NCBI GenBank assembly: GCA_964016885.1
Contig: OZ024742.1
Span: 120,032,001 to 120,096,000 of the forward strand
Direction of reading: 5' to 3'
From: Eledone cirrhosa
Lineage: Eukaryota
Length of the DNA stretch: 64,000 bases
Below are positions 27,952 through 61,721 of this stretch, one piece after another. A model generated the notes under the pieces. That model did no database searches and was not told where the DNA came from. It saw only the letters and a list, made by a program, of their open reading frames with translations. The position numbers and the translations under genes are program-made. Each line of letters begins with the position of its first letter. Position 1 is the stretch's first letter.

Positions 27952-28973
27952 CTGAAATGAAATGAAATGAAAATAGTTTAATTAGAATGGAAAGATTAAG
28001 TTGATTTCAAATTGAAGGAAAGATACCAGTAAGTTGAAAACAATTGTTTCAGTGTAGAAGAACTGCAGTAACTTTCACGTCATCTTTGGCAGCTATAGTT
28101 AATGAATAAAAGACTTGTGTACCTTTATGTCAACTGTACCTCCTTTAGGAGTTCAAGAGATGAAATTTTACCACCACACCATCTTGCCAGTTTAACATGC
28201 AATTAATAATAATAATAAAAACAGCCCAAAATTGTGATATTTTGATTCATTACCAATACAACAACTTTGAGTGGTTTTCAAAATGCAAATTTTAAGCTAG
28301 ATTTACAATTCTGAATAATCAAATCTCTCAAATGTACATTGGGAACCACTTTGTCTACTCTTTCTGTGGTCACCAGAAGTGCTTCATTTTCATAAGAATA
28401 GAATAAACAGAACGTTGTTAGCAACATACTGCAGTTCCCATGTTCTACTAGTCAAAAGTAAAATGCTCTCTCATCCGTTGATTTACAAAACACTGCTTTT
28501 AACAAAAAATGGAAGTTAAGCTTCAGTTAGTCACAATATCAATGTTCTTTTTGGAAACATGATCTTAACTCAAATGACTCAACTTTCTTACAATAAAACT
28601 ATGGCAACGTTTTCAGGTAGATATTTTCTCCTGGTTAAAATTGAAAAACATTTTGTTATATAAGCAAAAAATCTAAATATATGCTGACAATGGATCAAAA
28701 TTAAATTCACAATCTGAATGTTTCCATTGAATAAAATCTTAACTAGTCAAAATAAAACAAATTCATATAATATCAACACTAAATACTTATATAGCCATAC
28801 AGATACATTTTACCTTTTGTTTCAAGTTAACCTTACATTTTTCACAAAACAATCATTAAGTTTCACTTAAAATGTAACACCATGATAAATCAGTTTGGTA
28901 TTATATTCACATCTCAAATAACTAAACTTGCTTATATTGAAAATATAACCGTTTCTTGTTTTGTAAAACTCAC

Positions 28974-28985
28974 TTGCAATATAAA
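28974..28985 (-). CDS. Candidate 12-nt microexon of the GALNT stem
   Basis: attttcgtgtttttttgttttttattctcag|TTTATATTGCAA|gtgagt: long polypyrimidine tract, consensus donor, length a multiple of 3, open in the required phase 1 (xYIAx). Confidence 0.55.
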
Positions 28986-29970
28986 CTGAGAATAAAAAAC
29001 AAAAAAACACGAAAATATGCTGACTTTAGATCTAAAAATAACAAGTATATTTTTATTTTTAATGCTGACACCAAATTTAGCTAACAAAAAGATGAAATGT
29101 TTATTTCACAATAGAAATATAATTGTTATAAGAAAATGAAAACTGTTAAAGGTTACATAAAAATTCATAGGCCACACATAAATGCTACATTGAACATCAA
29201 TGGCAGTTAAGAAATCAAACTGATAATTGAATATTTTAAAACAAAAGGGATATCAAAGATCACTTGTTAGTTATTGAAAACATTTTTAAAAAAAATGAAG
29301 TGGTTGTATAAACAAAACAATTGCAGTTATTTCTTCTATTCTTAGACTTAGTTAAAGTACTGGAGACAGTCTAGGCTTGGGATGATTAATTTAAAATCTA
29401 TTATATAGCTAAAGTTTGACATTACTTTGGCAAAGGGCCAATATAATCAGTCAATAATATAAGTATCCAAGATCAGGTTCAGTTTCATTCTTGATAGATA
29501 GAAAGATATTTATTCTCCAAAATGAAAATGATGGATATCGTACAGAATATATTAGAATAGGGAATAAAAATATGTTGAATAGACTTTAGATTTCATCTTA
29601 CACAGACTACACTGATAACTGTGAGCTAGTAATGTCAATGAAAACTTGAATGAAATATATAAAATAAATGTGATTATATACATTAAAGATGTGGAACTAT
29701 ATAATAAACAGTCAGTCTTTTGTGAATATTACACATGAACTGTAATTGTTATATCAGAAGTGAATTCAACAAATCAAATGATAAGGAATTTGGTGAATGC
29801 ATCTAATTAGCTCATCATATCAGTAATCATTAGTATCTTCTTAGAAAACATTAACATAGGTTTGTATCACTTTTAAGCATATTTCACACTTTCATTTATT
29901 TTGGAATTTTTCCAAATTTCTCTTTATTTTTCTAATTTCAGCAACAGAACAGTATTATTATTATTAGGGA

Positions 29971-30108
29971 GCAGCACAGTTACGTCCCTTTACGGACTGA
30001 GTTCAAATCCCGTCGAGGTTCACTTTGCCTTTCATCGTTACGGGGGTCAATAAAATAAAGTACCAGTAATACACTGGGTTTGCTGGCTTTGTGCCATAAG
30101 TAGAAACA
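29971..30108 (+). mobile_element. 5'-truncated SINE family A with 11-bp TSD
   Basis: Flanked by ATTATTAGGGA at 29960-29970 and 30109-30119. Confidence 0.85.
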
Positions 30109-31696
30109 ATTATTAGGGAATCTAAGTCCAGAAAGACAACTTTTCAGTCCTGGTACCATGCTTAAATTCCCATCTGGTTCAATTTAACCACATAGCTGTT
30201 GAGTGTCTTTCAGAAAGTCCTGTTTGTTGCAAGAATTTGGGCAACGCTTACAGCCAAGGGATAACAACAATCACTTCATTCACCGATTCTTACTGCATTT
30301 TACTTATGTGGTGCCACTGTTTGTCTGAGGGTACAGTTAAAAACGGTTTCTCAGTGGCGATTCAGGGTCAGATAACTCTGTGAGGAACATCTCAGGAGGC
30401 TGTCTTATTAGCTGGTACATAATGCAGAGTCTTTTCCCAGTTCATTACTAGTGTGCTGAGTACAGGATAGAAGTGCTGAGTACAGGATAGAAGTACTGAA
30501 TAGCTACAATTCATGAATCTTGCCCTTGCCTCTCTACCATAAATCTAAATATTATAAATGAAATGAAGTAAAAAAAATGCTTAATTCGCTGGACAATTTC
30601 CTCTCCTACATCTGTAGTCTTTGGTCCAATATTTACTCCATCTCTCAACTGTTACCTTCTAACTACATATACAAGAAAATACTAAACAGATCTTGTTTCT
30701 TTAATTATAGACAGTAAGAAGAAAAGTGAAAAACAATAAATTTCTAGAGTTCAGAAAGTTAACAAAAATATAAACCTTAGAATGAGGAATGATTCTTGAA
30801 GCATTGTACATATGTGCTTGATCAACTGGCATGGTCATTAAAGCTCAAACTCCAAAACCGTTGGCTTTATAAGAAATAAGAATGTTGGAGCTCCCAAGTC
30901 AGGTAAATAAATAATGATTTCCTCATATGTACAACAGTTTTTTTTTTTTCCATCCAAACCCCACCTCCTCTGCCAAGTCAAATATTTACTTGAGAATCTG
31001 TGGCATCATGTATTACAGTGCAGACATACATCTATTTATCGATATTCCTAATAATGGCCAGGAAATCAATTTTGAGTGTTTTATGGAGCCAAATCCTATT
31101 TGTCTAAGTGAAGTTGGTCAACTGAATATCTTTTAAATAAGACATTTTAGAATGTATGTTACTGGGTAAATCAAGATGAATGCTTTGTTTATTAGGTTTT
31201 TCTTTTTCCCTTCTTCTCATATTGTCTAATCAAGATGCCCAATTTGAATCTAACATATTCTTCAAAAGTGACTGCTAATAAATTCTATTCTGTCTTCACC
31301 TGAGATTTGTATTCCATAACTAAGTGAGGCTCCTGAAGTTTAAAACAATCAGTGTTTGATGAATAGCAGATTGCTGGCTTATTGGCTTTTCTTTTTATGT
31401 TTGACATCAAATTATCAACTTCTCATTGTCAAGGTGTCTTTTCTGTGGGAATCACTCAATATACTACAGGAAATTGTTTAGTTATGTTTTTAAAAGCTAG
31501 AACTGAACTTGATAAATTAGAAATTAATAACAAAATCCTAATGGGAAGCTTTTGTGAAATAAATATCTTGGTTGTATGGTGGTTATAATGGAGAATTAAC
31601 CTTTCCAGTACCATATTTCTGATGAAAGACAAGAATTTGGAGGATTTAGTAATATAACCAAATTTATTATTATTTATCCGATGTTTGAAACACGCC

Positions 31697-31909
31697 TTAA
31701 ACCTTTAGCATTTAAACTGGCCATATCCGGCCAGAATTCTATCCCTTTCTGTTCAAACCAGCCATAACCGACTGCTTATACTGATGTTAAGATATTGTTC
31801 TCAAAATAAATAATATCAAAATCTCGTAGCGTCCATATTATGTGAGATAAAGCCTTTACCATGAAAATACAATAGTAAATATAGAGTAATGTAAATATTA
31901 AAGGGTTAA
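31697..31909. mobile_element. MITE family P1 copy, inserted into a P2 fragment starting at ~31597
   Basis: TTAA-ACCTTTAGCATTTAAACTGGCCATATCCGGCCAGAATTCT ... GTAAATATTAAAGGG-TTAA. The upstream TTAACCTTTCCAGTACCATATTTCT is a P2 left end. Confidence 0.8.
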
Positions 31910-32523
31910 AGGTTCTTATACAAAATTATCTCAAACTGGTAATTTCCCTTAATAGCACTACCAGGCCAATAATTCATCCACTTATTCCTCAGGTTGAAAG
32001 TTTTCCAGACCAAATGAGTTAGCTGATTCTCATTGAGTCCCAGAGTTTTCTAAAGAAGATCATTGGTGTTTCCCACCAACATTTCTCTATTGAAAGCTGA
32101 TAGAAGTTCTACTGGCTAAATTGCAAGGCTAGTAAATGTCTGTGAGAGCCTGATATCATCCCAAATGTCAGGTGCCTAATTTTGGCCTGGCTTTGACCCA
32201 AGACTGCAGCCCCATCAAAGAGATAAACTGTGCAAAAGCAGTATCTCCTGCAATTTCTAATAAAGCTGTAGCTTCAATACAACATCAAGCATTTCACAGC
32301 AAACCTCTTGTATAGAGAGTGATGGTAGTATATGAACTGCATGACTAGCAGAATACATCTCTTACACAAGAAGCAAATAAGGAGATACTCCAATATAGCC
32401 AAATGGAAACTGGAAAGGCAGGACAAGGTGATGTAATCACTTGCGACATCTACCTGACTTTTCAAGAATAGCTTCCTCTCCATCTTTTTCTGGGTGATAT
32501 TAGCATGTACTCTCAATAATAAT

Positions 32524-32646
32524 TGTTTCTACTTTTGGCACAAGGCCAGCAATTATCCCAGTGCATTACTGGTATTTTATTTTATCGACCCCGTAACGAT
32601 GAAAGGCAAAGTTAACCTCGGCGGGATTTGAACTCAGAATGGCAAG
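32524..32646 (-). mobile_element. 5'-truncated SINE family A with 11-bp TSD
   Basis: Reverse complement of family A, flanked by TCAATAATAAT at 32513-32523 and 32647-32657. Confidence 0.85.
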
Positions 32647-33304
32647 TCAATAATAATAGGAATAATTCATAACATTTGAACAAGGACACAGATTTTTGAG
32701 TACATTGATTTGTTGCATCTCAGGAGTTGACAATCACTTGTTTTACTGACTATGGATATAGGAATGCTAAAGGCACACCAGGCAGAAACTTGAACCTAAA
32801 CAATAAAGGGACATAATCAAATACCACAAAGAATTTTGTCTAGTGCCTAAACATTTGTGAAACAATGTTATTCATAACAACATTAGAAGCTTCTTACTGA
32901 AGGATAAAGCCTCAAATATTTTATAACGGTCAGAGAAACTCTATATATTTTCCTTGATCAATAAATATATCAATGAAAGAAATTCTAACTGGAATTGAAA
33001 TGGAGTTACAAACCCAATGCACTAAGAACTTTCACCTCAAAGTGCAAGACCAATTTTGGATTGATCCTAATATATTTCATTAACCTGTAGGGATATCTAA
33101 AGCAAACTCGGCTTCAGCAAGTTAGGAAACAGGCAAATACTAAACCATGTGTATTGCAAAGCAACCAGATAATATATCTACTAATTCTCCCCTCATCCCT
33201 TCCCTACCAATAACAGATCCAGTCAAGAATCACTAAATCCCCAGGCATATCTGGAGTATCCTTTTCTATAGCTATTTAAACATCAGTGTGAATTTTTCAC
33301 GATG

Positions 33305-33335
33305 CAAATATACAAACATATATATATATATATAT

Positions 33336-33371
<36 letters not shown>

Positions 33372-33896
33372 ATATACATGTATACACACACATGTATATA
33401 TATGTATACACATACATACATTCATATATATGTACAAACATATATATATGTATACACATACATACATACATATATATGTACAAACATATATATATATGTA
33501 TACACATACATACATACATATATATGTACAAACATATATATATATGTATACACATACATACATACATATATATGTACAAACATATATATATGTATACACA
33601 TACATACATATATATATATATGTACACACATACATACACATACATACATATATATACACACACATATATATGTATACACATACATACATATATACACACA
33701 CATATATATATACACATACATACATATATATATATACACACACACACATATATATATATATATACACACATACATACATACACACACACATCTATATATA
33801 TATATATATATAGGTATGTATACACATACATACATATATACATACATACATACGTATACATATATATTTATATATATATGTATACATATATATTTT

Positions 33897-33932
<36 letters not shown>

Positions 33933-33977
33933 TCTGTATATTTATATATATGTATACATATATATTTATATATATGT

Positions 33978-34041
<64 letters not shown>

Positions 34042-34070
34042 ATATATATATATCTGTGTGTGCATATATA

Positions 34071-34104
<34 letters not shown>

Positions 34105-34235
34105 CATATATATATGTATGTGTATGTATGTATGTATGTATGTATGTATGTATGTATGTATGTATGTATGTATGTATGTATGTATGTATGTATGTATGTA
34201 TGTATGTATGTATATATATATGTATAGTATGTATA
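33305..34235. repeat. Compound TA/CA/TATG microsatellite field with a ~42-bp superperiod at its start
   Basis: Low-complexity sequence read directly. ATGTACAAACATATATATATATGTATACACATACATACATAC recurs several times at ~33430-33600. Confidence 0.95.
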
Positions 34236-34629
34236 AATAATTTGATAAGAACACATGTCAAAAAGCTATGGAAACATTTTTCAAGGTGGATTAACCCATC
34301 AATATAAATATGCTATTCTGAATTGAAGCAGCTTCTGGCACTCAGCTACTGCCAGTTGAGAACATTCATAGAGCACTATTCATATATTTTAAAGTCATAT
34401 TCCTTCAACTTGCTGGAAAATATTGGTTGAAAGCCAGGTGAAAGCTGTCCATATAACAGAAGATATGCTCTTTTATCAGTAATGCCAAGAGTCGAAACAA
34501 CATTTGACTAAATTTCTTATATAAGTAACAGGTATTATGAATACAAAGAGGACATCAGTTAATACCAAATTGCTTTTAATATAATTTTTATTTCTGAATG
34601 TGTGTGACTGATAGAGAAAGAGAGCGGGT

Positions 34630-34661
34630 TGCATACATACACACACACACATATATATGTG

Positions 34662-34703
<42 letters not shown>

Positions 34704-34739
34704 GATGTATATATATATATATATATGTGTGTGTAAGTG

Positions 34740-34819
<80 letters not shown>
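34630..34819. repeat. Compound (TA)/(GT) microsatellite ending at the mariner TA target
   Basis: Read directly. Confidence 0.95.
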
Positions 34820-35700
34820 CAGGGTGCGGACGATATTTGTTCGCAATTTTTAACTGCTAATTTTATGCAAATTTTTTTTACTTCCGTTGTCACTCTTGTC
34901 TTCATAAAAACAGTGACTATATTTCCATTATTTATTTTCAGAATAATTGATTATGAATAATTTTGAACCTCCAAATTTGTGGAAGAGGCACGGAGTTCTT
35001 CTTGGAATCCGCGCCGCGAGGACAAATAAGACCAGAAGATCAACTCCCAGAACAACAGGTTGGTCGCTGTCTCATCCAAAGACGTGCCCAGAGTCATGCA
35101 GACAAAGTTTCCAGCGACAACATTGGTCTTAGGTGTCATCAGCAGTCAAGGTGACGTCATGCCACCTCACTTCTTCCCTGAGGGCCTCAAGCTGAACACC
35201 GATGGCTACATCCGCGTTCTGAGCGAGGTAGTAAAGTCCTGGATTGACCAGGTAGCTGCAGGTAGGTCGTACGTGTGGCAGCAAGATTCAGCGCCCTGCC
35301 ATACCAGCCGAAAGACCCAAGCCTGGCTGTCAGAGAACTTCGTCGACTACACTTCACCTGACATCTGGCCTCCCAGCTCGCCTGACTGCCGCCCCCTCGA
35401 CTTCTTTGTGTGCGGCACAGTGGAACGAGACACCAACAAATCTAGCTGCAATACAAAAGACGATCTGAAGGCCAGGATCACAAGTGTCTTTAGGGGCCTA
35501 AGTCGGGAGACAGTGACGAAGGCCTGTAGCCGATTCCGAGGCCGTCATCAAAGCCAATGGCGGGTTTACCGAGTGAGATCGAAAGAACAAGTCATGAAGA
35601 CAAACTGACCCAAGTTTGATAAATATATCTTAAAAAATAAAACTACTGTGTTAATTTTTCCTAGACAGTAATCTTGCGAACAGATATCGTCCGCACCCTA
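34820..35700 (+). mobile_element. Tc1/mariner DD37D (maT/Bmmar1-type) transposon, internally deleted
   Basis: 27-bp TIRs CAGGGTGCGGACGATATTTGTTCGCAA / TTGCGAACAGATATCGTCCGCACCCTA (25/27) flanked by TA. The transposase QQDSAPCH...WPPSSPDCRPLDF has 37 residues between the 2nd and 3rd Asp. The N-terminus MNNFEPPNLW.. is fused out of frame to the catalytic region, so the HTH and first Asp are lost. Confidence 0.92.
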
Positions 35701-37357
35701 TATTGGTAAATTTTCCAAAAGATTGCTTAAACATTTTCCACTATTAGACATCATAACATAGTCCATATTGAAACCCCTTACTACTATCTCTTTTCTGTGT
35801 AAAGAAGCAACTTAAACAGAAGCAAAGTTATATCATGATAAATGAAAATAAATGACTTTCCTAATTTCTTTTTATTTAGCTTAACATCTCTTATTTAGTC
35901 GATCAACACAACCTTACAAAAAAAGATGTAAAATAAACCTCATATTACAGGAAATATTTTGGAAGTTATAATGACAGCATTTCATTTTCTGCCAACTCCT
36001 TTTTTAGTTGAACTAAACAATCTCTACCTACAGTTTAGAAAGCAAGAATTCAAATCTATGTATAAACCACTTCTCATTTTCAGTTACAGAAGAAAGAAAA
36101 CAATCTAGTGACGAATAACAGTATGTCTATACTGTCAAATAGAAATTGAAAGAAATATTGCATTTATGCAAGAATTCAAGAAGATTAAGCTGCAGATTTC
36201 CAATGTATATGACAATTAGATCTACTCCACTTCTATTAATTTTCTGTCATATGAAAAGCCGATTATGACATAATGAATATTGAATTTTGACTGATTTAGA
36301 TATATTTCGAGATGTATATTAAACATACAAAGGTATGCCTTTAATAAACACACATATTTAGCCTCACCATAATATGTAGGCACAATCATTAAACCACATA
36401 GTTTTCTGTATGGCCAGAAAAATAGACTGACCTGAGATCTTTCAGAGTAGTTTGGATCTTTATTGGAGACCAGTTTTTTTTTTCATTTTCCTGATCAGAA
36501 AGAATAGTAGCTTATGGCTATACAAACTCAGAACTAAACTGGTGGCCCAAATTTACATAAAAGTACTGCAAGCAACATTATTAATTAAATATTAAAAGAA
36601 TGAAAATAAACACTTTTATCCAAACACTATACTGTGCTTCTATTAATTAATTTCCAACACTTACACTAGTTGTGCAAATTAGGAGTTTGTATATGCTATA
36701 AATAGGCTCCTATTCTCTCTGTGGTCTGGAAAATAAATAACCAATTTCTGATGAAGCAGTAAAAGATGGTGAATTATCTCAGGCTAATCTCCTTTTCTAA
36801 GACCACAGATAGAAAAAGACGAGGTTCAACCACATTATCTACTTATCATGGTAATGCTAAAAATGTATGTTTATGAATTCAACTGTTGCAAATTAATATT
36901 TGCAGATATTATATGATCTTTTATTCATTAACTGGTTTCAGACATATCACCATCATTATTGTTTTTACACCTACTTCCTACACTGGCATGGGCTGGAAAA
37001 GCTGTCCTGCTTTGAGTCCAGACAGATCAGGGAGACTCCAGCTCACTCATATGTTCGATATTTGCTATGGCTGGACGTTCTTCCTAATATCATCTACCTT
37101 ACAGAGTACATTGATTGGTTTTGTAACACCAGTACTATATATATATATTATAAAGAAGAGAGACGGTTTTAAATGTAGATCCTATGTTTATTATATAATC
37201 CTGTTATATTTAAAAGCCATTAAAATGATTGCACAATAACCCTGGAGATACTAGCCTGCCTGCTTACAAAAGTAACCATGTACATCATATGACTACTGTA
37301 GTCCCAACACGCTTCTAACTACAGTAGCATATAAAAAATAAAAACACCACAACTTAC

Positions 37358-37364
37358 CACCTGC
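37358..37364 (-). other. Weak candidate microexon (7 nt GCAGGTG, or 3 nt GTG at 37358-37360)
   Basis: tgcatg...gttctcttcag|gcag|GTG|gtaagt: a perfect donor, two tandem acceptors and an upstream TGCATG. Confidence 0.3.
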
Positions 37365-38050
37365 CTGAAGAGAACATGTCAAAGAGTTATCATGCAATCA
37401 TTTTGACATCTTTGAAATATGTATAACAGGATTATATAATAAACAAAGAGTGTTCATTTAAAACAGTCTCTCTTCTTTATAATATTGACACTCTGTTTGA
37501 TACCTTATTGATAATACTTTAAGGAGCACAAGTTGTAGAATGCTTTACATATGTTTACAACTAAAGTCTGTGGATTATTTGATCAACCAACTTTCTTCTC
37601 TTGAATTATATATATATATATATATATATATCCTGTTGTCAAGGAAAATTGATGTTAAATGATGATAATTATAATAAATCAATATCAACATCATCATTTA
37701 ATATCCATTTATCCAAGCTAGTATGGGTTAAATGAGTTATCCAACTGTGAAACAAGCCAGATTGGGTGACTGTCTAAACTCGTACAGAACTGTTTCTGAC
37801 TTGGTTTCCATTGCTGGATGCCCTTTCTCATGCCAACCACATTTAGAGTGTGGTGCTTTTTGTCATGACTCCTACTAAACTTACATGTACATGAAATGAA
37901 TATTATTAGTTTATATCACGCCTCTTTGTTTTTATTATATTAGCAAACAACATTTGATATTATTCTAGATGGACTACAAGTCAGCATTGAAAACCACATA
38001 TAGAATTATGATGATTTCACACACAGTCAGACACACTGCAAGTAAATTAC

Positions 38051-38074
38051 CAGATCTTACTTTTACTTTCCATA
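38051..38074 (-). other. Weak candidate microexon (24 nt, or 14 nt at 38061-38074)
   Basis: TACTAAC branch-point consensus at 38090-38096, then tcctccttag|TATGGAAAGTAAAA|gtaaga or ...GATCTG|gtaatt. Open in phase 1 (xWKVK..). Confidence 0.3.
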
Positions 38075-38152
38075 CTAAGGAGGACCTGTGTTAGTAAACT
38101 AGAACAATTGTAAGGTGAAAGAAGAATTTATTTAGTGGTTCCTTGTTTAATC

Positions 38153-41100
38153 TAGTCTGCAAAGTGGACAGTGGGGAAGGCCAGCACTACATATAGATAG
38201 TCAGTAAAGTGGACAGTGGGGAAGGCCAGTACTACATATAGATAGTCAGTAAAGTGGACAGTGGGGAAGGCCAGTACTACATATAGATAGTCAGTAAAGT
38301 GGGCAGTGGGGAAGGCCAGCACTACATATAGATAGTCAGTAAAGTGGACAGTGGGGAAGGCCAGCACTACATATAGATAGTCAGTAAAGTGGACAGTGGG
38401 GAAGGCCAGTACTACATATAGATAGTCAGTAAAGTGGACAGTGGGGAAGGCCAGTACTACATATAGATAGTCAGTAAAGTGGACAGTGGGGAAGGCCAGT
38501 ACTACATATAGATAGTCAGTAAAGTGGACAGTGGGGAAGGCCAGCCCTATATATAGATAGTCAGTAAAGTGGACAGTGGGGAAGGCCAGTACTACATATA
38601 GATAGTCAGTAAAGTGGACAGTGGGGAAGGCCAGTACTACATATAGATAGTCAGTAAAGTGGACAGTGGGGAAGGCCAGTACTACATATAGATAGTCAGT
38701 AAAGTGGACAGTGGGGAAGGCCAGCCCTATATATAGATAGTCAGTAAAGTGGACAGTGGGGAAGGCCAGTACTACATATAGATAGTCAGTAAAGTGGACA
38801 GTGGGGAAGGCCAGTACTACATATAGATAGTCAGTAAAGTGGACAGTGGGGAAGGCCAGTACTACATATAGATAGTCAGTAAAGTGGACAGTGGGGAAGG
38901 CCAGCCCTATATATAGATAGTCAGTAAAGTGGACAGTGGGGAAGGCCAGTACTACATATAGATAATCAATAAAGTGGACAGTGGGGAAGGCCAGCACTAC
39001 ATATAGATAGTCAGTAAAGTGGACAGTGGGGAAGGCCAGTACTACATATAGATAGTCAGTAAAGTGGACAGTGGGGAAGGCCAGCACTACATATAGATAG
39101 TCAGTAAAGTGGACAGTGGGGAAGGCCAGTACTACATATAGATAGTCAGTAAAGTGGACAGTGGGGAAGGCCAGTACTACATATAGATAGTCAGTAAAGT
39201 GGACAGTGGGGAAGGCCAGTACTACATATAGATAGTCAGTAAAGTGGACAGTGGGGAAGGCCAGTACTACATATAGATAGTCAGTAAAGTGGACAGTGGG
39301 GAAGGCCAGTACTACATATAGATAGTCAGTAAAGTGGACAGTGGGGAAGGCCAGTACTACATATAGATAGTCAGTAAAGTGGACAGTGGGGAAGGCCAGC
39401 ACTACATATAGATAGTCAGTAAAGTGGACAGTGGGGAAGGCCAGTACTACATATAGATAGTCAGTAAAGTGGACAGTGGGGAAGGCCAGTACTATATATA
39501 GATAGTCAGTAAAGTGGACAGTGGGGAAGGCCAGTACTACATATAGATAGTCAGTAAAGTGGACAGTGGGGAAGGCCAGTACTACATATAGATAGTCAGT
39601 AAAGTGGACAGTGGGGAAGGCCAGTACTACATATAGATAGTCAGTAAAGTGGACAGTGGGGAAGGCCAGTACTATATATAGATAGTCAGTAAAGTGGACA
39701 GTGGGGAAGGCCAGTACTACATATAGATAGTCAGTAAAGTGGACAGTGGGGAAGGCCAGTACTACATATAGATAGTCAGTAAAGTGGACAGTGGGGAAGG
39801 CCAGTACTACATATAGATAGTCAGTAAAGTGGACAGTGGGGAAGGCCAGTACTACATATAGATAGTCAGTAAAGTGGACAGTGGGGAAGGCCAGTACTAC
39901 ATATAGATAGTCAGTAAAGTGGACAGTGGGGAAGGCCAGTACTACATATAGATAGTCAGTAAAGTGGACAGTGGGGAAGGCCAGTACTACATATAGATAG
40001 TCAGTAAAGTGGACAGTGGGGAAGGCCAGTACTACATATAGATAGTCAGTAAAGTGGACAGTGGGGAAGGCCAGTACTATATATAGATAGTCAGTAAAGT
40101 GGACAGTGGGGAAGGCCAGTACTACATATAGATAGTCAGTAAAGTGGACAGTGGGGAAGGCCAGTACTACATATAGATAGTCAGTAAAGTGGACAGTGGG
40201 GAAGGCCAGTACTACATATAGATAGTCAGTAAAGTGGACAGTGGGGAAGGCCAGTACTACATATAGATAGTCAGTAAAGTGGACAGTGGGGAAGGCCAGT
40301 ACTATATATAGATAGTCAGTAAAGTGGACAGTGGGGAAGGCCAGTACTACATATAGATAGTCAGTAAAGTGGACAGTGGGGAAGGCCAGTACTACATATA
40401 GATAGTCAGTAAAGTGGACAGTGGGGAAGGCCAGTACTACATATAGATAGTCAGTAAAGTGGACAGTGGGGAAGGCCAGTACTACATATAGATAGTCAGT
40501 AAAGTGGACAGTGGGGAAGGCCAGTACTACATATAGTCAGTAAAGTGGACAGTGGGGAAGGCCAGTACTATATATAGATAGTCAGTAAAGTGGACAGTGG
40601 GGAAGGCCAGTACTACATATAGATAGTCAGTAAAGTGGACAGTGGGGAAGGCCAGTACTACATATAGATAGTCAGTAAAGTGGACAGTGGGGAAGGCCAG
40701 CATTACATATAGATAGTCAGTAAAGTGGACAGTGGGGAAGGCCAGCACTACATATAGATAGTCAGTAAAGTGGACAGTGGGGAAGGCCAGTACTACATAT
40801 AGGTAGCCAGTAAAGTGGTCAGTGGGGAAGGCCAGCACTACATATAGATAGTCAGTAAAGTGGACAGTGGGGAAGGCGAGTACTATATATAGATAGTCAG
40901 TAAAGTGGACAGTGGGGAAGGCGAGTACTATATATAGATAGTCAGTAAAGTGGACAGTGGGGAAGGCCAGTACTACATATAGATAGTCAGTAAAGTGGAC
41001 AGTGGGGAAGGCCAGCACTACATATAGATAGCCAGTAAAGTGGACAGTGGGGAAGGCCAGTACTACATATAGGTAGCCAGTAAAGTGGTCAGTGGGGAAG

Positions 41101-50100: not shown

Positions 50101-53100
50101 CAGTACTACATATAGATAGTCAGTAAAGTGGACAGTGGGGAAGGTCAGCACTACATATAGATAGTCAGTAAAGTGGACAGTGGGGAAGGCCAGCACTACA
50201 TATAGATAGTCAGTAAAGTGGACAGTGGGGAAGGCCAGCACTACATATAGATAGTCAGTAAAGTGGACAGTGGGGAAGGCCAGTACTACATATAGATAGT
50301 CAGTAAAGTGGACAGTGGGGAAGGCCAGCACTATATATAGATAGTCAGTAAAGTGGACAGTGGGGAAGGCCAGCACTACATATAGATAGTCAGTAAAGTG
50401 GACAGTGGGGAAGGCCAGCACTACATATAGATAGTCAGTAAAGTGGACAGTGGGGAAGGCCAGCACTACATATAGATAGTCAGTAAAGTGGACAGTGGGG
50501 AAGGCCAGCACTATATATAGATAGTCAGTAAAGTGGACAGTGGGGAAGGCCAGCACTATATATAGATAGTCAGTAAAGTGGACAGTGGGGAAGGCCAGTA
50601 CTACATATAGATAGTCAGTAAAGTGGACAGTGGGGAAGGCCAGCACTATATATAGATAGTCAGTAAAGTGGACAGTGGGGAAGGCCAGCACTATATATAG
50701 ATAGTCAGTAAAGTGGACAGTGGGGAAGGCCAGCACTACATATAGATAGTCAGTAAAGTGGACAGTGGGGAAGGCCAGTACTACATATAGATAGTCAGTA
50801 AAGTGGACAGTGGGGAAGGCCAGTACTACATATAGATAGTCAGTAAAGTGGACAGTGGGGAAGGCCAGCCCTACATATAGATAGTCAGTAAAGTGGACAG
50901 TGGGGAAGGCCAGTACTACATATAGATAGTCAGTAAAGTGGACAGTGGGGAAGGCCAGCACTACATATAGATAGTCAGTAAAGTGGACAGTGGGGAAGGC
51001 CAGCACTATATATAGATAGTCAGTAAAGTGGACAGTGGGGAAGGCCAGCACTATATATAGATAGTCAGTAAAGTGGACAGTGGGGAAGGCCAGTACTACA
51101 TATAGATAGTCAGTAAAGTGGACAGTGGGGAAGGCCAGCACTATATATAGATAGTCAGTAAAGTGGACAGTGGGGAAGGCCAGCACTATATATAGATAGT
51201 CAGTAAAGTGGACAGTGGGGAAGGCCAGCACTACATATAGATAGTCAGTAAAGTGGACAGTGGGGAAGGCCAGTACTACATATAGATAGTCAGTAAAGTG
51301 GACAGTGGGGAAGGCCAGTACTACATATAGATAGTCAGTAAAGTGGACAGTGGGGAAGGCCAGCCCTACATATAGATAGTCAGTAAAGTGGACAGTGGGG
51401 AAGGCCAGTACTACATATAGATAGTCAGTAAAGTGGACAGTGGGGAAGGCCAGCACTACATATAGATAGTCAGTAAAGTGGACAGTGGGGAAGGCCAGTA
51501 CTACATATAGATAGTCAGTAAAGTGGACAGTGGGGAAGGCCAGTACTACGTATAGATAGTCAGTAAAGTGGACAGTGGGGAAGGCCAGTACTACATATAG
51601 ATAGTCAGTAAAGTGGACAGTGGGGAAGGCCAGTACTATATATAGATAGTCAGTAAAGTGGACAATGGGGAAGGCCAGTACTACATATAGATAGTCAGTA
51701 AAGTGGACAATGGGGAAGGCCAGCACTACATATAGATAGTCAGTAAAGTGGACAGTGGGGAAGGCCAGCACTACATATAGATAGTCAGTAAAGTGGACAG
51801 TGGGGAAGGCCAGCACTACATATAGATAGTCAGTAAAGTGGACAGTGGGGAAGGCCAGCACTACATATAGATAGTCAGTAAAGTGGACAGTGGGGAAGGC
51901 CAGTACTACATATAGATAGTCAGTAAAGTGGACAGTGGGGAAGGCCAGCACTACATATAGATAGTCAGTAAAGTGGACAGTGGGGAAGGCCAGTACTACA
52001 TATAGATAGTCAGTAAAGTGGACAGTGGGGAAGGCCAGCACTACATATAGATAGTCAGTAAAGTGGACAGTGGGGAAGGCCAGTACTACATATAGATAGT
52101 CAGTAAAGTGGACAGTGGGGAAGGCCAGCACTACATATAGATAGTCAGTAAAGTGGACAGTGGGGAAGGCCAGTACTACATATAGATAGTCAGTAAAGTG
52201 GTCAGTGGGGAAGGCCAGTACTACATATAGATAGTCAGTAAAGTGGACAGTGGGGAAGGCCAGTACTACATATAGATAGTCAGTAAAGTGGACAGTGGGG
52301 AAGGCCAGCCCTACATATAGATAGTCAGTAAAGTGGACAATGGGGAAGGCCAGCACTACATATAGATAGTCAGTAAAGTGGACAGTGGGGAAGGCCAGCA
52401 CTACATATAGATAGTCAGTAAAGTGGACAGTGGGGAAGGCCAGCACTACATATAGATAGTCAGTAAAGTGGACAGTGGGGAAGGCCAGTACTACATATAG
52501 ATAGTCAGTAAAGTGGTCAGTGGGGAAGGCCAGTACTACATATAGATAGTCAGTAAAGTGGACAGTGGGGAAGGCCAGTACTACATATAGATAGTCAGTA
52601 AAGTGGACAGTGGGGAAGGCCAGCCCTACATATAGATAGTCAGTAAAGTGGACAGTGGGGAAGGCCAGCACTACATATAGATAGTCAGTAAAGTGAACAG
52701 TGGGGAAGGCCAGCCCTACATATAGATAGTCAGTAAAGTGGACAGTGGGAAGGCCAGCACTACATATAGATAGTCAGTAAAGTGGACAGTGGGGAAGGCC
52801 AGTACTACATATAGATAGTCAGTAAAGTTGACAGTGGGGAAGGCCAGCACTACATATAGGTAGTCAGTAAAGTGGACAGTGGGGAAGGCCAGCACTACAT
52901 ATAGATAGTCAGTAAAGTGGACAGTGGGGAAGGCCAGTACTACATATAGATAGTCAGTAAAGTGGACAGTGGGGAAGGCCAGCCCTACATATAGATAGTC
53001 AGTAAAGTGGACAGTGGGGAAGGCCAGCACTACATATAGATAGTCAGTAAAGTGAACAGTGGGGAAGGCCAGCCCTACATATAGATAGTCAGTAAAGTGG

Positions 53101-56100
53101 ACAGTGGGAAGGCCAGCACTACATATAGATAGTCAGTAAAGTGGACAGTGGGGAAGGCCAGTACTACATATAGATAGTCAGTAAAGTTGACAGTGGGGAA
53201 GGCCAGCACTACATATAGGTAGTCAGTAAAGTGGACAGTGGGGAAGGCCAGCACTACATATAGATAGTCAGTAAAGTGGACAGTGGGGAAGGCCAGTACT
53301 ACATATAGATAGTCAGTAAAGTGGACAGTGGGGAAGGCCAGTACTACATATAGATAGTCATTAAAGTGGACAGTGGGGAAGGCCAGTACTACATATAGAT
53401 AGCCAGTAAAGTGGACAGTGGGGAAGGCCAGTACTACATATAGATAGTCAGTAAAGTGGACAGTGGGGAAGGCCAGTACTACATATAGATAGTCAGTAAA
53501 GTGGACAGTGGGGAAGGCCAGCACTACATATAGATAGTCAGTAAAGTGGATAGTGGGGAAGGCCAGTACTACATATAGATAGTCATTAAAGTGGACAGTG
53601 GGGAAGGCCAGTACTACATATAGATAGCCAGTAAAGTGGACAGTGGGGAAGGCCAGCACTACATATAGATAGTCAGTAAAGTGGACAGTGGGGAAGGCCA
53701 GTACTACATATAGATAGTCAGTAAAGTGGACAGTGGGGAAGGCCAGTACTACATATAGATAGTCAGTAAAGTGGACAGTGGGGAAGGCCAGTACTACATA
53801 TAGATAGCCAGTAAAGTGGGCAGTGGGGAAGGCCAGTACTACATATAGATAGTCAGTAAAGTGGACAGTGGGGAAGGCCAGCACTACATATAGGTAGTCA
53901 GTAAAGTGGACAGTGGGGAAGGCCAGTACTACATATAGGTGGTCAGTAAAGTGGACAGTGGGGAAGGCCAGCACTACATATAGATAGTCAGTAAAGTGGA
54001 CAGTGGGGAAGGCCAGTACTACATATAGATAGTCAGTAAAGTGGACAGTGGGGAAGGCCAGTACTACATATAGATAGTCAGTAAAGTGGACAGTGGGGAA
54101 GGCCAGCACTACATATAGATAGTCAGTAAAGTGGATAGTGGGGAAGGCCAGTACTACATATAGATAGTCATTAAAGTGGACAGTGGGGAAGGCCAGTACT
54201 ACATATAGATAGCCAGTAAAGTGGACAGTGGGGAAGGCCAGCACTACATATAGATAGTCAGTAAAGTGGACAGTGGGGAAGGCCAGTACTACATATAGAT
54301 AGTCAGTAAAGTGGACAGTGGGGAAGGCCAGTACTACATATAGATAGTCAGTAAAGTGGACAGTGGGGAAGGCCAGTACTACATATAGATAGCCAGTAAA
54401 GTGGGCAGTGGGGAAGGCCAGTACTACATATAGATAGTCAGTAAAGTGGACAGTGGGGAAGGCCAGCACTACATATAGGTAGTCAGTAAAGTGGACAGTG
54501 GGGAAGGCCAGTACTACATATAGATAGTCAGTAAAGTGGACAGTGGGGAAGGCCAGCACTACATATAGGTAGTCAGTAAAGTGGACAGTGGGGAAGGCCA
54601 GCACTACATATAGGTAGTCAGTAAAGTGGACAGTGGGGAAGGCCAGTACTACATATAGGTAGTCAGTAAAGTGGACAGTGGGGAAGGCCAGTACTACATA
54701 TAGGTAGTCAGTAAAGTGGACAGTGGGGAAGGCCAGCACTACATATAGGTAGTCAGTAAAGTGGACAGTGGGGAAGGCCAGCACTACATATAGGTAGTCA
54801 GTAAAGTGGACAGTGGGGAAGGCCAGCACTACATATAGGTAGTCAGTAAAGTGGACAGTGGGGAAGGCCAGTACTACATATAGGTAGTCAGTAAAGTGGA
54901 CAGTGGGGAAGGCCAGTACTACATATAGATAGTCAGTAAAGTGGACAGTGGGGAAGGCCAGCACTACATATAGGTAGTCAGTAAAGTGGACAGTGGGGAA
55001 GGCCAGCACTACATATAGGTAGTCAGTAAAGTGGACAGTGGGGAAGGCCAGTACTACATATAGGTAGTCAGTAAAGTGGACAGTGGGGAAGGCCAGTACT
55101 ACATATAGATAGTCAGTAAAGTGGACAGTGGGGAAGGCCAGCACTACATATAGATAGTCAGTAAAGTGGACAGTGGGGAAGGCCAGTACTACATATAGGT
55201 GGTCAGTAAAGTGGACAGTGGGGAAGGCCAGCACTACATATAGATAGTCAGTAAAGTGGACAGTGGGGAAGGCCAGTACTACATATAGATAGTCAGTAAA
55301 GTGGACAGTGGGGAAGGCCAGTACTACATATAGATAGTCAGTAAAGTGGACAGTGGGGAAGGCCAGTACTACATATAGGTAGTCAGTAAAGTGGAGTGGG
55401 GAAGGCCAGCACTACATATAGATAGTCAGTAAAGTGGACAGTGGGGAAGGCCAGTACTACATATAGATAGTCAGTAAAGTGGACAGTGGGGAAGGCCAGT
55501 ACTACATATAGATAGCCAGTAAAGTGGACAGTGGGGAAGGCCAGCACTACATATAGATAGTCAGTAAAGTGGACAGTGGGGAAGGCCAGTACTACATATA
55601 GATAGCCAGTAAAGTGGACAGTGGGGAAGGCCAGTACTACATATAGATAGTCAGTAAAGTGGTCAGTGGGGAAGGCCAGCACTACATATAGATAATAAGT
55701 AAAGTGGACAGTGGGGAAGGCCAGTACTACATATAGATAGTCAGTAAAGTGGACAGTGGGGAAGGCCAGCACTACATATAGATAGTCAGTAAAGTGGACA
55801 GTGGGGAAGGCCAGTACTATATATAGATAGTCAGTAAAGTGGACAGTGGGGAAGGCCAGTACTACATATAGATAGTCAGTAAAGTGGACAGTGGGGAAGG
55901 CCAGCACTACATATAGGTAGTCAGTAAAGTGGACAGTGGGGAAGGCGAGTACTACATATAGATAGTCAGTAAAGTGGACAGTGGGGAAGGCCAGTACTAC
56001 ATATAGATAGTCAGTAAAGTTGACAGTGGGGAAGGCCAGTACTACATATAGATAGTCAGTAAAGTGGACAGTGGGGAAGGCCAGTACTACGTATAGATAG

Positions 56101-57632
56101 TCAGTAAAGTGGACAGTGGGGAAGGCCAGTACTACATATAGATAGTCAGTAAAGTGGACAGTGGGGAAGGCCAGCACTACATATAGGTAGTCAGTAAAGT
56201 GGACAGTGGGGAAGGCGAGTACTACATATAGATAGTCAGTAAAGTGGACAGTGGGGAAGGCCAGTACTACATATAGATAGTCAGTAAAGTTGACAGTGGG
56301 GAAGGCCAGTACTACATATAGATAGTCAGTAAAGTGGACAGTGGGGAAGGCCAGTACTACGTATAGATAGTCAGTAAAGTGGACAGTGGGGAAGGCCAGT
56401 ACTACATATAGATAGTCAGTAAAGTGGACAGTGGGGAAGGCCAGTACTACGTATAGATAGTCAGTAAAGTGGACAGTGGGGAAGGCCAGTACTACATATA
56501 GATAGTCAGTAAAGTTGACAGTGGGGAAGGCCAGTACTACATATAGATAGTCAGTAAAGTGGACAGTGGGGAAGGCCAGTACTACATATAGATAGTCAGT
56601 AAAGTTGACAGTGGGGAAGGCCAGTACTACATATAGATAGTCAGTAAAGTGGACAGTGGGGAAGGCCAGTACTACGTATAGATAGTCAGTAAAGTGGACA
56701 GTGGGGAAGGCCAGTACTACATATAGATAGTCAGTAAAGTTGACAGTGGGGAAGGCCAGTACTACATATAGATAGTCAGTAAAGTGGACAGTGGGGAAGG
56801 CCAGTACTACATATAGATAGTCAGTAAAGTTGACAGTGGGGAAGGCCAGTACTACATATAGATAGTCAGTAAAGTTGACAGTGGGGAAGGCCAGTACTAC
56901 ATATAGATAGTCAGTAAAGTGGACAGTGGGGAAGGCCAGTACTACGTATAGATAGTCAGTAAAGTGGACAGTGGGGAAGGCCAGTACTACATATAGATAG
57001 TCAGTAAAGTGGACAGTGGGGAAGGCCAGCACTACATATAGGTAGTCAGTAAAGTGGACAGTGGGGAAGGCGAGTACTACATATAGATAGTCAGTAAAGT
57101 GGACAGTGGGGAAGGCCAGTACTACATATAGATAGTCAGTAAAGTTGACAGTGGGGAAGGCCAGTACTACATATAGATAGTCAGTAAAGTGGACAGTGGG
57201 GAAGGCCAGTACTACATATAGATAGTCAGTAAAGTGGACAGTGGGGAAGGCCAGTACTACATATAGATAGTCAGTAAAGTGGACAGTGGGGAAGGCCAGT
57301 ACTACATATAGATAGTCAGTAAAGTGGACAGTGGGGAAGGCCAGCACTACATATAGATAGTCAGTAAAGTGGACAGTGGGGAAGGCCAGTACTACATATA
57401 GATAGCCAGTAAAGTGGACAGTGGGGAAGGCCAGTACTACGTATAGATAGTCAGTAAAGTGGACAGTGGGGAAGGCCAGCACTACATATAGATAATCAAT
57501 AAAGTGGACAGTGGGGAAGGCCAGTACTACGTATAGATAGTCAGTAAAGTGGACAGTGGGGAAGGCCAGCACTACATATAGATAATCAATAAAGTGGGCA
57601 GTGGAGAAGGCCAGTACTACGTATAGATAGTC
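38153..57632. repeat. 45-bp tandem satellite, ~19.5 kb, ~433 copies, unit TAGTCAGTAAAGTGGACAGTGGGGAAGGCCAGYACTACATATAGA
   Basis: Read directly. The array is highly homogeneous with clustered variants, a few indel units and more diverged terminal units. Confidence 0.99.
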
Positions 57633-58769
57633 CTTTCACAAGGATAGAGAAGTTGAGTAAAATTACTTTGGTAAGGGTGATGATTATAGTTAGCAGAGAA
57701 AATTAAGCAGGTAAAAATACACTGCAGGAAGCAAATTACAGGGTGTAATAGTTTTCTGAATGAAGAACTGGATGAAATGTTTTCTACAATAGATGGCTTG
57801 GAATAGATGTGAGATGCAGCAAGCAAGTTCAGAAGAGAAAATTGTTATATATAACATGCAAAAGGAGGGGAGGGACAGTGAGAGAGAGAATGATGTATCA
57901 TAGATTAAAGATTTTTCTTCTTGTTAATCAGCCAGATGGTTTTCTTCTGATCAATTTACAATGAATGATTGGCAAAGAGGGTATTTATTTATTTGGAGGA
58001 GGAGCAACAGACTGGACCATTGTTAGCTCTCCAAATATATAGACATGTTTGTACCTTGTAGATTCAACAGCTGCTTAGAGCAGAAATATGTTGATATTTT
58101 TCTTCATTGAATCATAAATATAAAGCTGCCTCTAGATTATGCAAGAGGCATTAATGCATAAATATGCATGGTAAAGCCAGATAATTGCCACTGGGAGTTA
58201 TTTGTGCTAAGTAGCTGTGCCATGAAGTACTCTTCCCTGTAAAAGTAATGTTTGTAATTCAAGGCTATCAATTTTTTTAGATTCTACAAGTGAAAGAGAT
58301 GAATGTTTGATTTATAAATGCTCATATTTCTGTTTCATATGATATTAGATATTTTTTAAATGGGGATATGAAGATTTGTATCCTCTAGATAAAAATGTAA
58401 TGTGTTGAAGACTCACTAGTCATATCACATATACATTATCTTTATATTTCCCAGTTGGGTTTCATATTAACCAAAGAGGGTTAGAAAACAATGGTTAAAA
58501 TAACAAAACAAAAATGATATTAAGATTGTAGAAAACAAGCCACTGATCCTGTTAAAATTGAACAACATTTCAATGATTATTAACACTTAGTATTTTAAAC
58601 AAACATTAACAGATGATTTTAGTTATCAAATAATAAAAGATGGGAAGGGCTTTGAGCTTTCCTTTATGGCTTGATAACAAAAATTAGTAATGTGTTCATC
58701 ATCATACAATCCAAAACATTTCTGTAATATCCACATCAGGTCAAATTTGCATCATTTTGATATAATTCA

Positions 58770-59070
58770 CAATAGCACTAACACAGTGTGGTTTAGAATA
58801 AAGGCATACACGAATCCATATACAAATGGTTTACATATAATAAACACGTTTAGTTCAGTATTTGCCTAGGTGCTGAGGTATGGAAAACAATATCTTCATA
58901 TAGAATTTGTAAACAAACTATTCTTGGTGTAAGTTTATTTACATATAGTGCAAGCTTGATTGACTAGTATTAATTAGCAATAGCACTAACACAGCGTGCC
59001 TCAGAATAAAAGTATGTATGAATCCATATGCAGTATATTTACATACAATAAACATACACTTAGTCTCCAG
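58770..59070. repeat. Diverged ~85-bp direct duplication (58770-58858 vs 58978-59068)
   Basis: CAATAGCACTAACACAG..AGAATAAA..GAATCCATAT..TTTACATA.AATAAACA occurs twice. Confidence 0.75.
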
Positions 59071-59452
59071 TGAGTATTTTAAGCTGTTATTATATCACAA
59101 CTACCTCAGTATCTAGGCCTAAGTATTCAAGTGTAATGAATTGTTATGACAGTAAAATGCATACACCACTCTTTCCGTGATGCTGAGGTAGCTATGACAC
59201 GATCACAGCCCAAAACACTCACAGTCAGATTACATTTCTGTTTGTTATATGTAGCATGATCACAGTCAAATGACTGAAACCAATAAAAGAATAAATAAAA
59301 CATATTGCCTATGCATTCATATACACATTCTACTTTAATATGTAAGTGAAAATTTACAAAACAAAACTACATAGGTTATAACAGACTAGTCATATCTAAA
59401 TTAAATGTGAGTAGCTTTATTTTTCTCTAAAAAAAAAAAAAAAAATACTCAC

Positions 59453-59479
59453 AGTCTAGCACTGGAATAAAATGTTGTC
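59453..59479 (-). CDS. Candidate 27-nt microexon of the GALNT stem
   Basis: ttcctaacttttacag|GACAACATTTTATTCCAGTGCTAGACT|gtgagta, with a ~70-nt U-rich tract upstream (59551-59623 on +, A-rich). Length is a multiple of 3 and it is open in phase 1 (xQHFIPVLDx). Confidence 0.6.
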
Positions 59480-60378: not shown

Positions 60379-60601
60379 TTAACCCGTTAGCACTTAAACC
60401 AGCCATATCCGGCCAGAATTCTCTCATTTCTTTCTGTTCAAACTGGCCATAAATGGCCATTTATGTTAAGGTATTGTTCTCAAAATAAATAATATCAGAA
60501 TCTCATAGATTCAATATTACGTGAGATAATTATGAGCGGTAAAGCCTTTACCGCGAATATACAATAATAAATATAGAGTAATGTAAATGCTAAAGGATTA
60601 A
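60379..60601. mobile_element. MITE family P1 copy, sharing its right TTAA with a P2-like left end
   Basis: TTAA-CCCGTTAGCACTTAAACCAGCCATATCCGGCCAGAATT ... GTAAATGCTAAAGGA-TTAA-TGCTTTTGTTACCAT. Confidence 0.8.
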
Positions 60602-61601: not shown

Positions 61602-61721
61602 CGCCTACACTAGCAGAATTATATCTTGTCTTTTAACATAACACAGTATCTGTAAAAAAAAGGGCTTGAATGCATGAGTAGTCAGTCAATATTCTGACAT
61701 GTTAACATTGTAGCTATTGAG

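What the first reader, a model, noticed from the sequence alone, without database searches (positions are those of the whole stretch)
28974..59479. GALNT stem region apparently assembled from dispersed, frame-preserving microexons
Seen: upstream (in the transcript) of the first recognisable GALNT exon, whose acceptor is phase 1, I find no normal-sized coding exon in ~36 kb. Instead there are two tiny segments with strong splice signals on the gene's strand: 27 nt (59453-59479; cag/gtgagt; long U-rich tract) and 12 nt (28974-28985; cag/gtgagt; long pyrimidine tract). Both are multiples of 3 and stop-free in phase 1. Splicing gives ..[26 protein letters not shown].., and any subset is also in frame. 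Established: this position is the luminal stem between the TM anchor and the catalytic domain of ppGalNAc-Ts, a region affecting Golgi localisation and shedding. Microexons of 3-27 nt are typically neural and Srrm3/4 (eMIC)-dependent in bilaterians. Inference: this could be a combinatorial microexon cassette that tunes an O-glycosylation initiating enzyme in a cephalopod. Standard annotation would likely miss it.
Basis: partly seen in the sequence, partly recalled or inferred. Interest (0 to 1): 0.75.

Follow-up and report, generated by a model that had tools for sequence, protein, structure and literature searches.

The report
Optional microexons in octopus glycosyltransferase stem
In an octopus-type animal, the gene for an enzyme that starts sugar chains on proteins has four tiny exons (9-27 bases), matching optional exons already annotated in two Octopus species, plus one unconfirmed 12-base candidate, in the intron before its catalytic part; they would lengthen the enzyme's predicted floppy stalk and likely adjust where it sits or is released in some tissues.

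Summary
Both segments are present as described. The 27-nt segment is a real microexon: its orthologue is already in RefSeq isoforms of Octopus sinensis and O. bimaculoides GALNT1, so annotation does not miss it. It is the fourth of four phase-1 microexons (9, 27/12, 27, 27 nt) in one 90,837-nt intron; the other three and the membrane-anchor exon lie upstream of the window. All four have collinear orthologues here, and 14 of 14 junction residues agree with Octopus isoforms. The stem is not built from them: an RNA contig's length fits skipping of all of them exactly (1,253 nt). The two last 27-nt exons never co-occur in 15 listed isoforms. The 12-nt segment has very strong splice signals (0.07-0.2 expected by chance) in single-copy DNA but no counterpart in those 15 isoforms: about 45% real. 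Neural, eMIC-dependent control is untested; the UGC motif is missing at both window segments. Bivalves, Aplysia and a nemertean show unrelated optional inserts at the same stem position. Most likely a tissue-regulated stem-length cassette; effect on Golgi retention or shedding is inferred. New member of a known kind.

The parts
59453..59479 (-). Microexon D, 27 nt, phase 1-1, optional; 9 residues, 5 of 9 identical to the Octopus insert
   Evidence: orthologue in 3 of 15 listed Octopus isoforms (O. sinensis X2, X7; O. bimaculoides X5); core single-copy
28974..28985 (-). Candidate microexon E, 12 nt, phase 1-1, unconfirmed (about 45%); would add 4 hydrophobic residues
   Evidence: strong splice signals; single-copy; absent from 15 of 15 listed Octopus isoforms
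27786..27951 (-). Constitutive coding exon 2 (166 nt): end of stem and start of catalytic domain
   Evidence: 93% identical to O. sinensis XP_029633286
12650..12819 (-). Constitutive coding exon 3 (170 nt), catalytic domain
27952..64000 (-). Window part of the 90,837-nt host intron. The intron runs on beyond the window and holds there microexon C (27 nt, G000:C3:120096898-120096924), microexon B (27 nt, 12-nt short form by an internal donor, C3:120103095-120103121) and microexon A (9 nt, C3:120108410-120108418); the membrane-anchor exon (456 nt) is at C3:120150789-120151244 and a 5' exon has its donor at C3:120171569
   Evidence: A in 6, long B in 6, short B in 1, C in 6 of 15 listed Octopus isoforms
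38153..57632 (.). 45-bp satellite (434 copies) inside the host intron between D and E; not coding

Best explanation
The 27-nt segment is one of four frame-preserving microexons, matching optional exons annotated in two Octopus species, in the long intron between the membrane-anchor exon and the catalytic exons of an octopod GALNT1/13-type gene; they are likely skipped by default and likely included in tissue-regulated combinations, which would lengthen the predicted disordered luminal stem by 3-21 residues and likely tune Golgi retention or shedding without touching the active site. Shown: the exons, their order A-B-C-D, phase, the alternative donor in B, and their alternative use in RefSeq models of two Octopus species. 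Shown by length arithmetic only: a fully skipped transcript in one RNA run of this organism. Inferred: inclusion in this species, C/D exclusivity, tissue regulation, and the functional effect. My guess for the effect is a change in protease access and retention: long B adds a basic stretch ending in a dibasic pair that resembles a proprotein-convertase site (recalled, not tested) and short B removes it. The 12-nt segment may be a fifth, rarer or lineage-restricted member (about 45%). Confidence by step: cassette real 0.93; tissue-regulated 0.65; neural and eMIC-driven 0.35; affects retention or shedding 0.4.
For: Listed Octopus isoforms differ by short in-frame inserts at this junction and otherwise only by the lectin exon or C-terminus. 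B, C, D are each the single best hit (1 of 5,436; 1 of 6,000; 1 of 6,000 candidates) in 1.1 Mb and lie in the same order as in the proteins. 14 of 14 junction residues seen in Octopus isoforms, which depend on split-codon bases, are reproduced from this genome. 48 of 48 combinations are stop-free. Run X4 holds a spliced 1,762-nt contig = 53 + 456 + 1,253 nt, and exons 2-10 up to the lectin branch sum to 1,253. Residues 32-110 of the longest isoform, which include all inserts, have pLDDT below 50; similarity to GalNAc-T1 chain 8v9q resumes at residue 102. Unrelated optional inserts sit at the same stem position in six mollusc genera and a nemertean. An eMIC-domain (SRRM_C) gene exists in this genome.
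Against: No read or contig showing inclusion of any microexon in this organism was seen. RefSeq isoforms are automatic models; tissue and level are not given. C and D are only 5 of 9 identical to Octopus against 409 of 418 for exons 2-10, so constraint on their sequence is weak. No insert in the Argonauta protein or in 6 of 6 full-length cuttlefish-cluster proteins. No UGC within 60 nt of the acceptor at A, D or E. The constant stem already has a dibasic pair, so the convertase idea is not specific. In-frame inserts in a disordered stem may simply be tolerated.
Confidence: 0.6

Rival explanations
1. Tolerated exon turnover: the exons are real but functionally near neutral. A 91-kb symmetric-phase intron in a disordered stem gains small in-frame exons that are included at low level and persist because they do no harm.
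For: Inserts at this position are unrelated between lineages; C and D diverge fast; the dominant form in X4 and all listed cuttlefish proteins skip them; site predicted disordered.
Against: Four exons, their order, phase, split-codon bases and even the internal donor of B are kept between this genome and Octopus; A is 3 of 3 and B 7 of its first 7 residues identical.
Confidence: 0.25
2. Classic neural eMIC programme: all segments, the 12-nt one included, are neuron-specific targets of the Srrm2/3/4 eMIC isoform and combine freely.
For: Sizes 9-27 nt, multiples of three; AG-free zones of 26-141 nt; weak acceptors with upstream U tracts and a UGC at -53 and -32 for B and C; eMIC gene present; UGC is not strictly required (10.1101/2024.09.17.613571, section read).
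Against: No UGC near the acceptors of A, D, E, whereas 74-79% of human targets have one; A and E have strong acceptors while fly eMIC targets have very weak ones; C and D do not co-occur; no tissue data.
Confidence: 0.25
3. The 12-nt segment is a pseudo-exon: chance strong splice signals in an AT-rich intron, never used. This concerns E only and is compatible with the best explanation.
For: Absent from 15 of 15 listed Octopus isoforms although a 3-residue insert is annotated there; equally strong signals occur by chance: 3 in 848,520 control bases, and the top-ranked candidate of this intron (37364) lies in an interspersed repeat.
Against: Only 0.07 in-frame hits expected in this intron; single-copy DNA; right phase; 19 of 34 cluster members could not be seen; a nemertean has a 4-residue optional insert at this position.
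Confidence: 0.55

Closest known systems
RefSeq GALNT1 isoforms of Octopus sinensis (XP_029633230, XP_029633241, XP_029633312 and others, X1-X14) and O. bimaculoides (XP_014774705, XP_014774711 and others)
   Same: Orthologous gene; same four stem inserts in the same order, same short form of B, same lectin exon pair.
   Different: B is 27 nt here and 10 residues (30 nt) in Octopus; C and D differ at 4 of 9 residues; the 12-nt candidate is not in the 15 isoforms seen. The database models carry no tissue or functional information.
Neural eMIC (Srrm3/4, Srrm234)-dependent microexons of vertebrates and flies (10.1101/2021.02.24.432780, passages; 10.1101/2024.09.17.613571, abstract and one section)
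   Same: 3-27 nt, frame-preserving, optional, long AG-free zones, long host intron; regulator domain present in the genome.
   Different: UGC missing at three of five acceptors; several microexons share one intron; neural specificity untested; target is a Golgi luminal stem.
Alternative splicing of ppGalNAc-Ts: duplicated-exon swaps in GALNT13 / Pgant5 / gly-5 (PMC9741552, passages) and the pgant9 switch (PMC6115407, abstract)
   Same: Same enzyme family; this gene also has a duplicated, alternately used lectin exon pair.
   Different: Those events swap a duplicated exon or a substrate-gating loop; the microexons here change the stem, outside the folded domains.
Optional stem inserts of the orthologue in other lophotrochozoans (Crassostrea 38 + 14 aa, Mytilus 22, Mercenaria and Ruditapes 35, Dreissena 41, Aplysia 16, Lineus 4 + 17)
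   Same: Same position in the protein, in frame, present in some isoforms only.
   Different: Unrelated sequences, mostly one or two larger inserts instead of four microexons; exon status inferred from proteins, DNA not seen.

Membership tests
ppGalNAc-T (GT27), GALNT1/13-Pgant5-gly-5 type | Type II membrane anchor, stem, GT-A catalytic domain with DxH, C-terminal ricin lectin domain | tested here: met
   All exons mapped; exons 2-10 open, 409 of 418 residues identical to O. sinensis X14; best solved match GalNAc-T1, E 2e-254
Alternative (cassette) microexon: D, and A-C | 3-27 nt, AG/GT bounded, frame-preserving | tested here: met
Alternative (cassette) microexon: D, and A-C | Both included and skipped transcripts exist | tested here: met
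   In orthologues: RefSeq isoforms with and without each insert. In this organism only skipping, by length arithmetic
Alternative (cassette) microexon: E (12 nt) | Included in some transcript, or conserved in a relative | tested here: inconclusive
   0 of 15 listed isoforms of a 34-member cluster; no cephalopod DNA found to compare; no joints shown
eMIC-dependent neural microexons | UGC motif close to the acceptor | tested here: not met
   None within 60 nt at A, D, E; at -53 for B and -32 for C. The motif is frequent, not obligatory
eMIC-dependent neural microexons | Long AG exclusion zone, weak acceptor, strong branch point | tested here: inconclusive
   AG-free zone 50, 141, 52, 26, 32 nt for A-E; weak acceptor at B and C only; CUAAY at C (-23) and D (-13) only; constitutive exon 2 also has a zone of 109 nt
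eMIC-dependent neural microexons | eMIC regulator encoded in the genome | tested here: met
   PF15230 match over cut-off at G000:C22:28167743, with a weak second piece (below cut-off) 21 kb downstream that continues the domain
eMIC-dependent neural microexons | Neural-specific inclusion and loss on eMIC depletion | not testable with these tools
   No tissue-labelled RNA reads available
Mutually exclusive exon pair (C / D) | Never both in one transcript | tested here: inconclusive
   0 of 15 with both (C in 6, D in 3; about 1.2 expected if independent); O. sinensis numbering follows length in 10 of 10 seen and X1-X4 leave no room for five of six C+D combinations. Isoforms with neither exon exist, so not a strict one-of-two swap
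Tandem duplicated exon substitution (C / D or B / C) | Detectable homology between the exons | tested here: inconclusive
   Exon identity B-C 10 of 27, C-D 9 of 27, B-D 5 of 27 nt; B and C share acceptor and donor context, 24 of 47 with flanks

The most novel reading that the evidence does not exclude
Octopods evolved a five-microexon switchboard in the stem of an O-glycosylation initiating enzyme: a neural splicing programme picks C or D and uses the long or short form of B to add or remove a convertase site, converting a Golgi-anchored transferase into a shed one, independently of a lectin exon swap; the same intron was recruited separately in bivalves, a gastropod and a nemertean.
Probability: 0.12. 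Interest if true: 0.72.

Novelty: new member of a known kind. Interest (0 to 1): 0.4.

Why it matters
Stems of Golgi glycosyltransferases are held to contribute to Golgi localisation, and their ectodomains are shed (10.1101/2021.02.15.431224 and PMC8918473, passages). This gene offers a set of small natural stem inserts, with and without a dibasic end, on an unchanged catalytic domain, so the stem's role can be tested directly in cultured cells. It also gives concrete candidates for asking whether cephalopods use the eMIC microexon programme, on which my searches found no dedicated study. It is not a new kind of system, and four of five exons are already in automatic annotations of relatives.

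Tried and rejected
RNA search: no RNA holder listed. Laying X4 and X1 on 27775-29500 showed no joints and no X4 cover of exon 2 or E; a filter leaves records out, so this says nothing on E. X4 was recognised as spliced RNA only; contigs drop rare variants, so absence of inclusion there is no evidence. Metagenome scan for cephalopod DNA around exon 2: 52 loci, best 74% identity, none used. A second cluster listing returned the same 15 of 34 members. Searches for shorter and near-length relatives gave no further cephalopod isoform with inserts. Other candidates in the intron: 37364-37358 (7 nt, rank 1, frameshifting, or 3 nt from a second AG) rejected as lying in an interspersed repeat with 52 matches; 29397-29368 (30 nt) rejected, rank 4,806 of 6,331; a 24-nt candidate at L005:149-172 (strong acceptor, weak donor, rank 4) left open. 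Origin of the microexons by duplication: not demonstrable. Long open frames in the 45-bp and 23-bp satellites are repeat artefacts. Literature on furin-type cleavage of GalNAc-T stems: nothing found. The splice-site score uses recalled generic frequencies, not a trained model; it ranks the real exon C only 81st, so it is crude.
Full report
Observation. On the minus strand, 59479-59453 (27 nt) and 28985-28974 (12 nt) are bounded by cag and gtgagt, are stop-free in phase 1 and join in frame to the 166-nt exon 27951-27786. That exon is 93% identical to Octopus sinensis GALNT1. The window is G000:C3:120032001-120096000 of a 3.0-Gb genome. The exon with the start codon, membrane anchor and constant Gly-rich stem ends 54.8 kb beyond the window, so the host intron is 90,837 nt. 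Coordinates above 64000 below continue the window numbering (add 120,032,000 for C3).

The 27-nt segment is a known-type, already annotated microexon. The O. sinensis cluster has 34 members, of which 15 were listed (10 O. sinensis, 4 O. bimaculoides, 1 O. vulgaris). Their stems differ by short in-frame inserts at exactly this junction: A (3 residues, in 6 of 15), B (10 residues, in 6; a 4-residue short form in 1), C (9 residues, in 6), D (9 residues, in 3), none in 3. D is the orthologue of the window's 27-nt segment (5 of 9 residues identical, same length, same junction residues). So the claim that standard annotation would miss it is wrong for D.

The cassette is larger than the window shows. 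Scoring all 2,734 stop-free AG..GT phase-1 candidates of the intron against the Octopus inserts gave one clear top hit each, in the order of the proteins: A 76418-76410 (9 nt), B 71121-71095 (27 nt, with an internal GTAAGT donor that yields the 12-nt short form), C 64924-64898 (27 nt), D 59479-59453. As a control, in 1,104,600 bases (both strands counted) B, C and D were the only hits at their scores among 5,436, 6,000 and 6,000 candidates; A, being three residues, had 4 hits among 9,366, of which only this one lies in the host intron, with strong splice sites. All 14 junction residues that occur in the listed Octopus isoforms are reproduced from this genome (comparison), and 48 of 48 combinations, E included, are stop-free. 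Spacings are 42.4, 5.3, 6.2, 5.4, 30.5 and 1.0 kb.

The exons are optional. Run X4, not on record as RNA, holds a 1,762-nt contig at depth 97 that covers the anchor exon from its acceptor and continues for 53 nt into a 5' exon 20 kb upstream, so it is spliced RNA. Removing those 53 nt and the 456-nt anchor exon leaves 1,253 nt; exons 2-10 of this genome, up to the point where the two lectin exons branch, sum to 1,253. This fits a dominant transcript without any microexon. No inclusion was observed in this organism. The Argonauta protein and 6 of 6 full-length proteins of the cuttlefish cluster also lack inserts.

C and D may exclude each other. None of 15 isoforms has both; about 1.2 would be expected if independent, which is weak alone. 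O. sinensis numbering follows length in 10 of 10 seen, and X1-X4 (613, 613, 612, 610) are all known, which leaves out five of the six C+D combinations; C+D alone (609) could hide among the unseen X5 and X6. They are 5.4 kb apart, so steric exclusion does not apply; no mechanism was tested.

The 12-nt segment (E) is unresolved. For: rank 2 of 6,331 sense candidates, above all 6,013 antisense ones and above all four real microexons (ranks 3, 12, 14, 81); 1 in-frame and 3 any-frame hits as strong in 848,520 control bases, 0.07 and 0.20 expected in the 56,732 unmasked bases of the intron; single-copy context. Against: absent from 15 of 15 listed isoforms although a 3-residue insert is annotated there; the threshold was set after the fact and the score is crude; the rank-1 candidate (37364) is a repeat-borne false lead. 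By length, E could still be in unseen isoforms X5, X6 or X12. No cephalopod DNA was available to test conservation. I put it at about 45%.

Regulation. The genome encodes an eMIC (SRRM_C) domain. Fly eMIC targets have weak acceptors, long AG-free zones, UGC near the acceptor and CUAAY branch points (10.1101/2021.02.24.432780, passages); UGC is found in 74-79% of human targets and is not strictly required (10.1101/2024.09.17.613571, abstract and section 10). B and C fit partly (weak acceptors, zones of 141 and 52 nt, UGC at -53 and -32); A, D and E have no UGC within 60 nt, and A and E have strong acceptors. Neural control is therefore possible for B and C and unsupported for the two window segments.

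Likely effect. An AlphaFold2 model of the longest O. sinensis isoform (48-sequence alignment) gives pLDDT below 50 for residues 32-110, which include all inserts, and similarity to GalNAc-T1 resumes at residue 102. The inserts would thus lengthen a flexible stem by 3-21 residues and leave the catalytic and lectin domains unchanged. All regions of Golgi glycosyltransferases, the stem among them, are reported to matter for localisation, and ectodomains are shed (10.1101/2021.02.15.431224, passages); for GALNT2 the reported release is by SPPL3 at or next to the membrane anchor, not in the distal stem (PMC8918473, passages), which weakens a stem-cleavage model. Long B ends in a dibasic pair in both this genome and Octopus and short B lacks it; the likeness to a convertase site is recalled and untested, and a search found no report of such cleavage in GalNAc-T stems (PMC5288242, passages). 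I commit to tissue-regulated tuning of retention or shedding as most likely, with near-neutral tolerance as the main rival.

Comparison and novelty. Isoforms of the orthologue carry unrelated optional inserts at the same position in Crassostrea (38 and 14 residues), Mytilus (22), Mercenaria and Ruditapes (35), Dreissena (41), Aplysia (16) and the nemertean Lineus (4 and 17); none was seen in the listed isoforms of Haliotis, Patella, Pomacea, Biomphalaria, Babylonia, Liolophura or scallops. The position is thus a recurrent site of alternative splicing; this rests on proteins, not DNA. The gene also has a duplicated lectin exon pair; duplicated-exon swaps are reported for GALNT13, Pgant5 and gly-5 (PMC9741552, passages), and a splice switch in pgant9 is known to alter specificity (PMC6115407, abstract and outline). 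Searches for octopus or cephalopod microexons and for GALNT stem splicing found no description of this cassette (listings only, except as cited). A 20-species splicing study that includes O. bimaculoides does not mention GALNT in its main text (10.64898/2026.09.05.749416, passages); its supplements were not seen. PMC8797185 gave only a reference-list hit.

Verdict. Observation confirmed; interpretation partly supported. A real, conserved octopod stem microexon cassette, largely present in automatic annotation and not studied in the papers I could search. New member of a known kind; interest 0.4.

Noticed in passing
G000:C3, L011 and L012 (about 37.7 kb and 44.5 kb below window position 1, minus strand): Two duplicated lectin-domain exons, used alternately in Octopus, cuttlefish, bivalve and gastropod isoforms; the Argonauta model and one cuttlefish model include both.
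   Followed up: partly
window 38153-57632: 45-bp satellite, 434 copies, 96% matches, 19.5 kb inside the intron between D and E; frames on the gene's strand are open for up to 1,620 codons, a repeat artefact.
   Followed up: no
window 23527-27769: 23-bp satellite, 185 copies, starting about 16 nt after the donor of exon 2.
   Followed up: no
window 37364-37358 (-): Strongest splice-signal pair in the intron (7 nt, frameshifting, TGCATG upstream) lies in an interspersed repeat with 52 matches; probable pseudo-exon.
   Followed up: yes
L005:149-172 (-): 24-nt in-frame candidate with strong CU-rich acceptor and 61-nt AG-free zone but weak donor, 0.7 kb downstream of C; no counterpart in listed isoforms.
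   Followed up: partly
window 35030-35605 (+): 192-codon open frame resembling a Tc1/mariner transposase fragment (resemblance recalled, not searched).
   Followed up: no
window 1271-1822, 4072-4497, 8756-9644, 21288-22019, 62351-62593: Short frames resembling decayed LINE reverse-transcriptase or endonuclease pieces (recalled, not searched).
   Followed up: no
G000:C24:26948619-26950121: Intronless GALNT paralogue (619-codon open frame, 43% identity) among otherwise multi-exon paralogues.
   Followed up: no
P0154, P0161 (Mytilus): A 7-residue optional insert at the end of the exon-3 region in the catalytic domain of Mytilus isoforms, possibly another microexon or alternative splice site.
   Followed up: no
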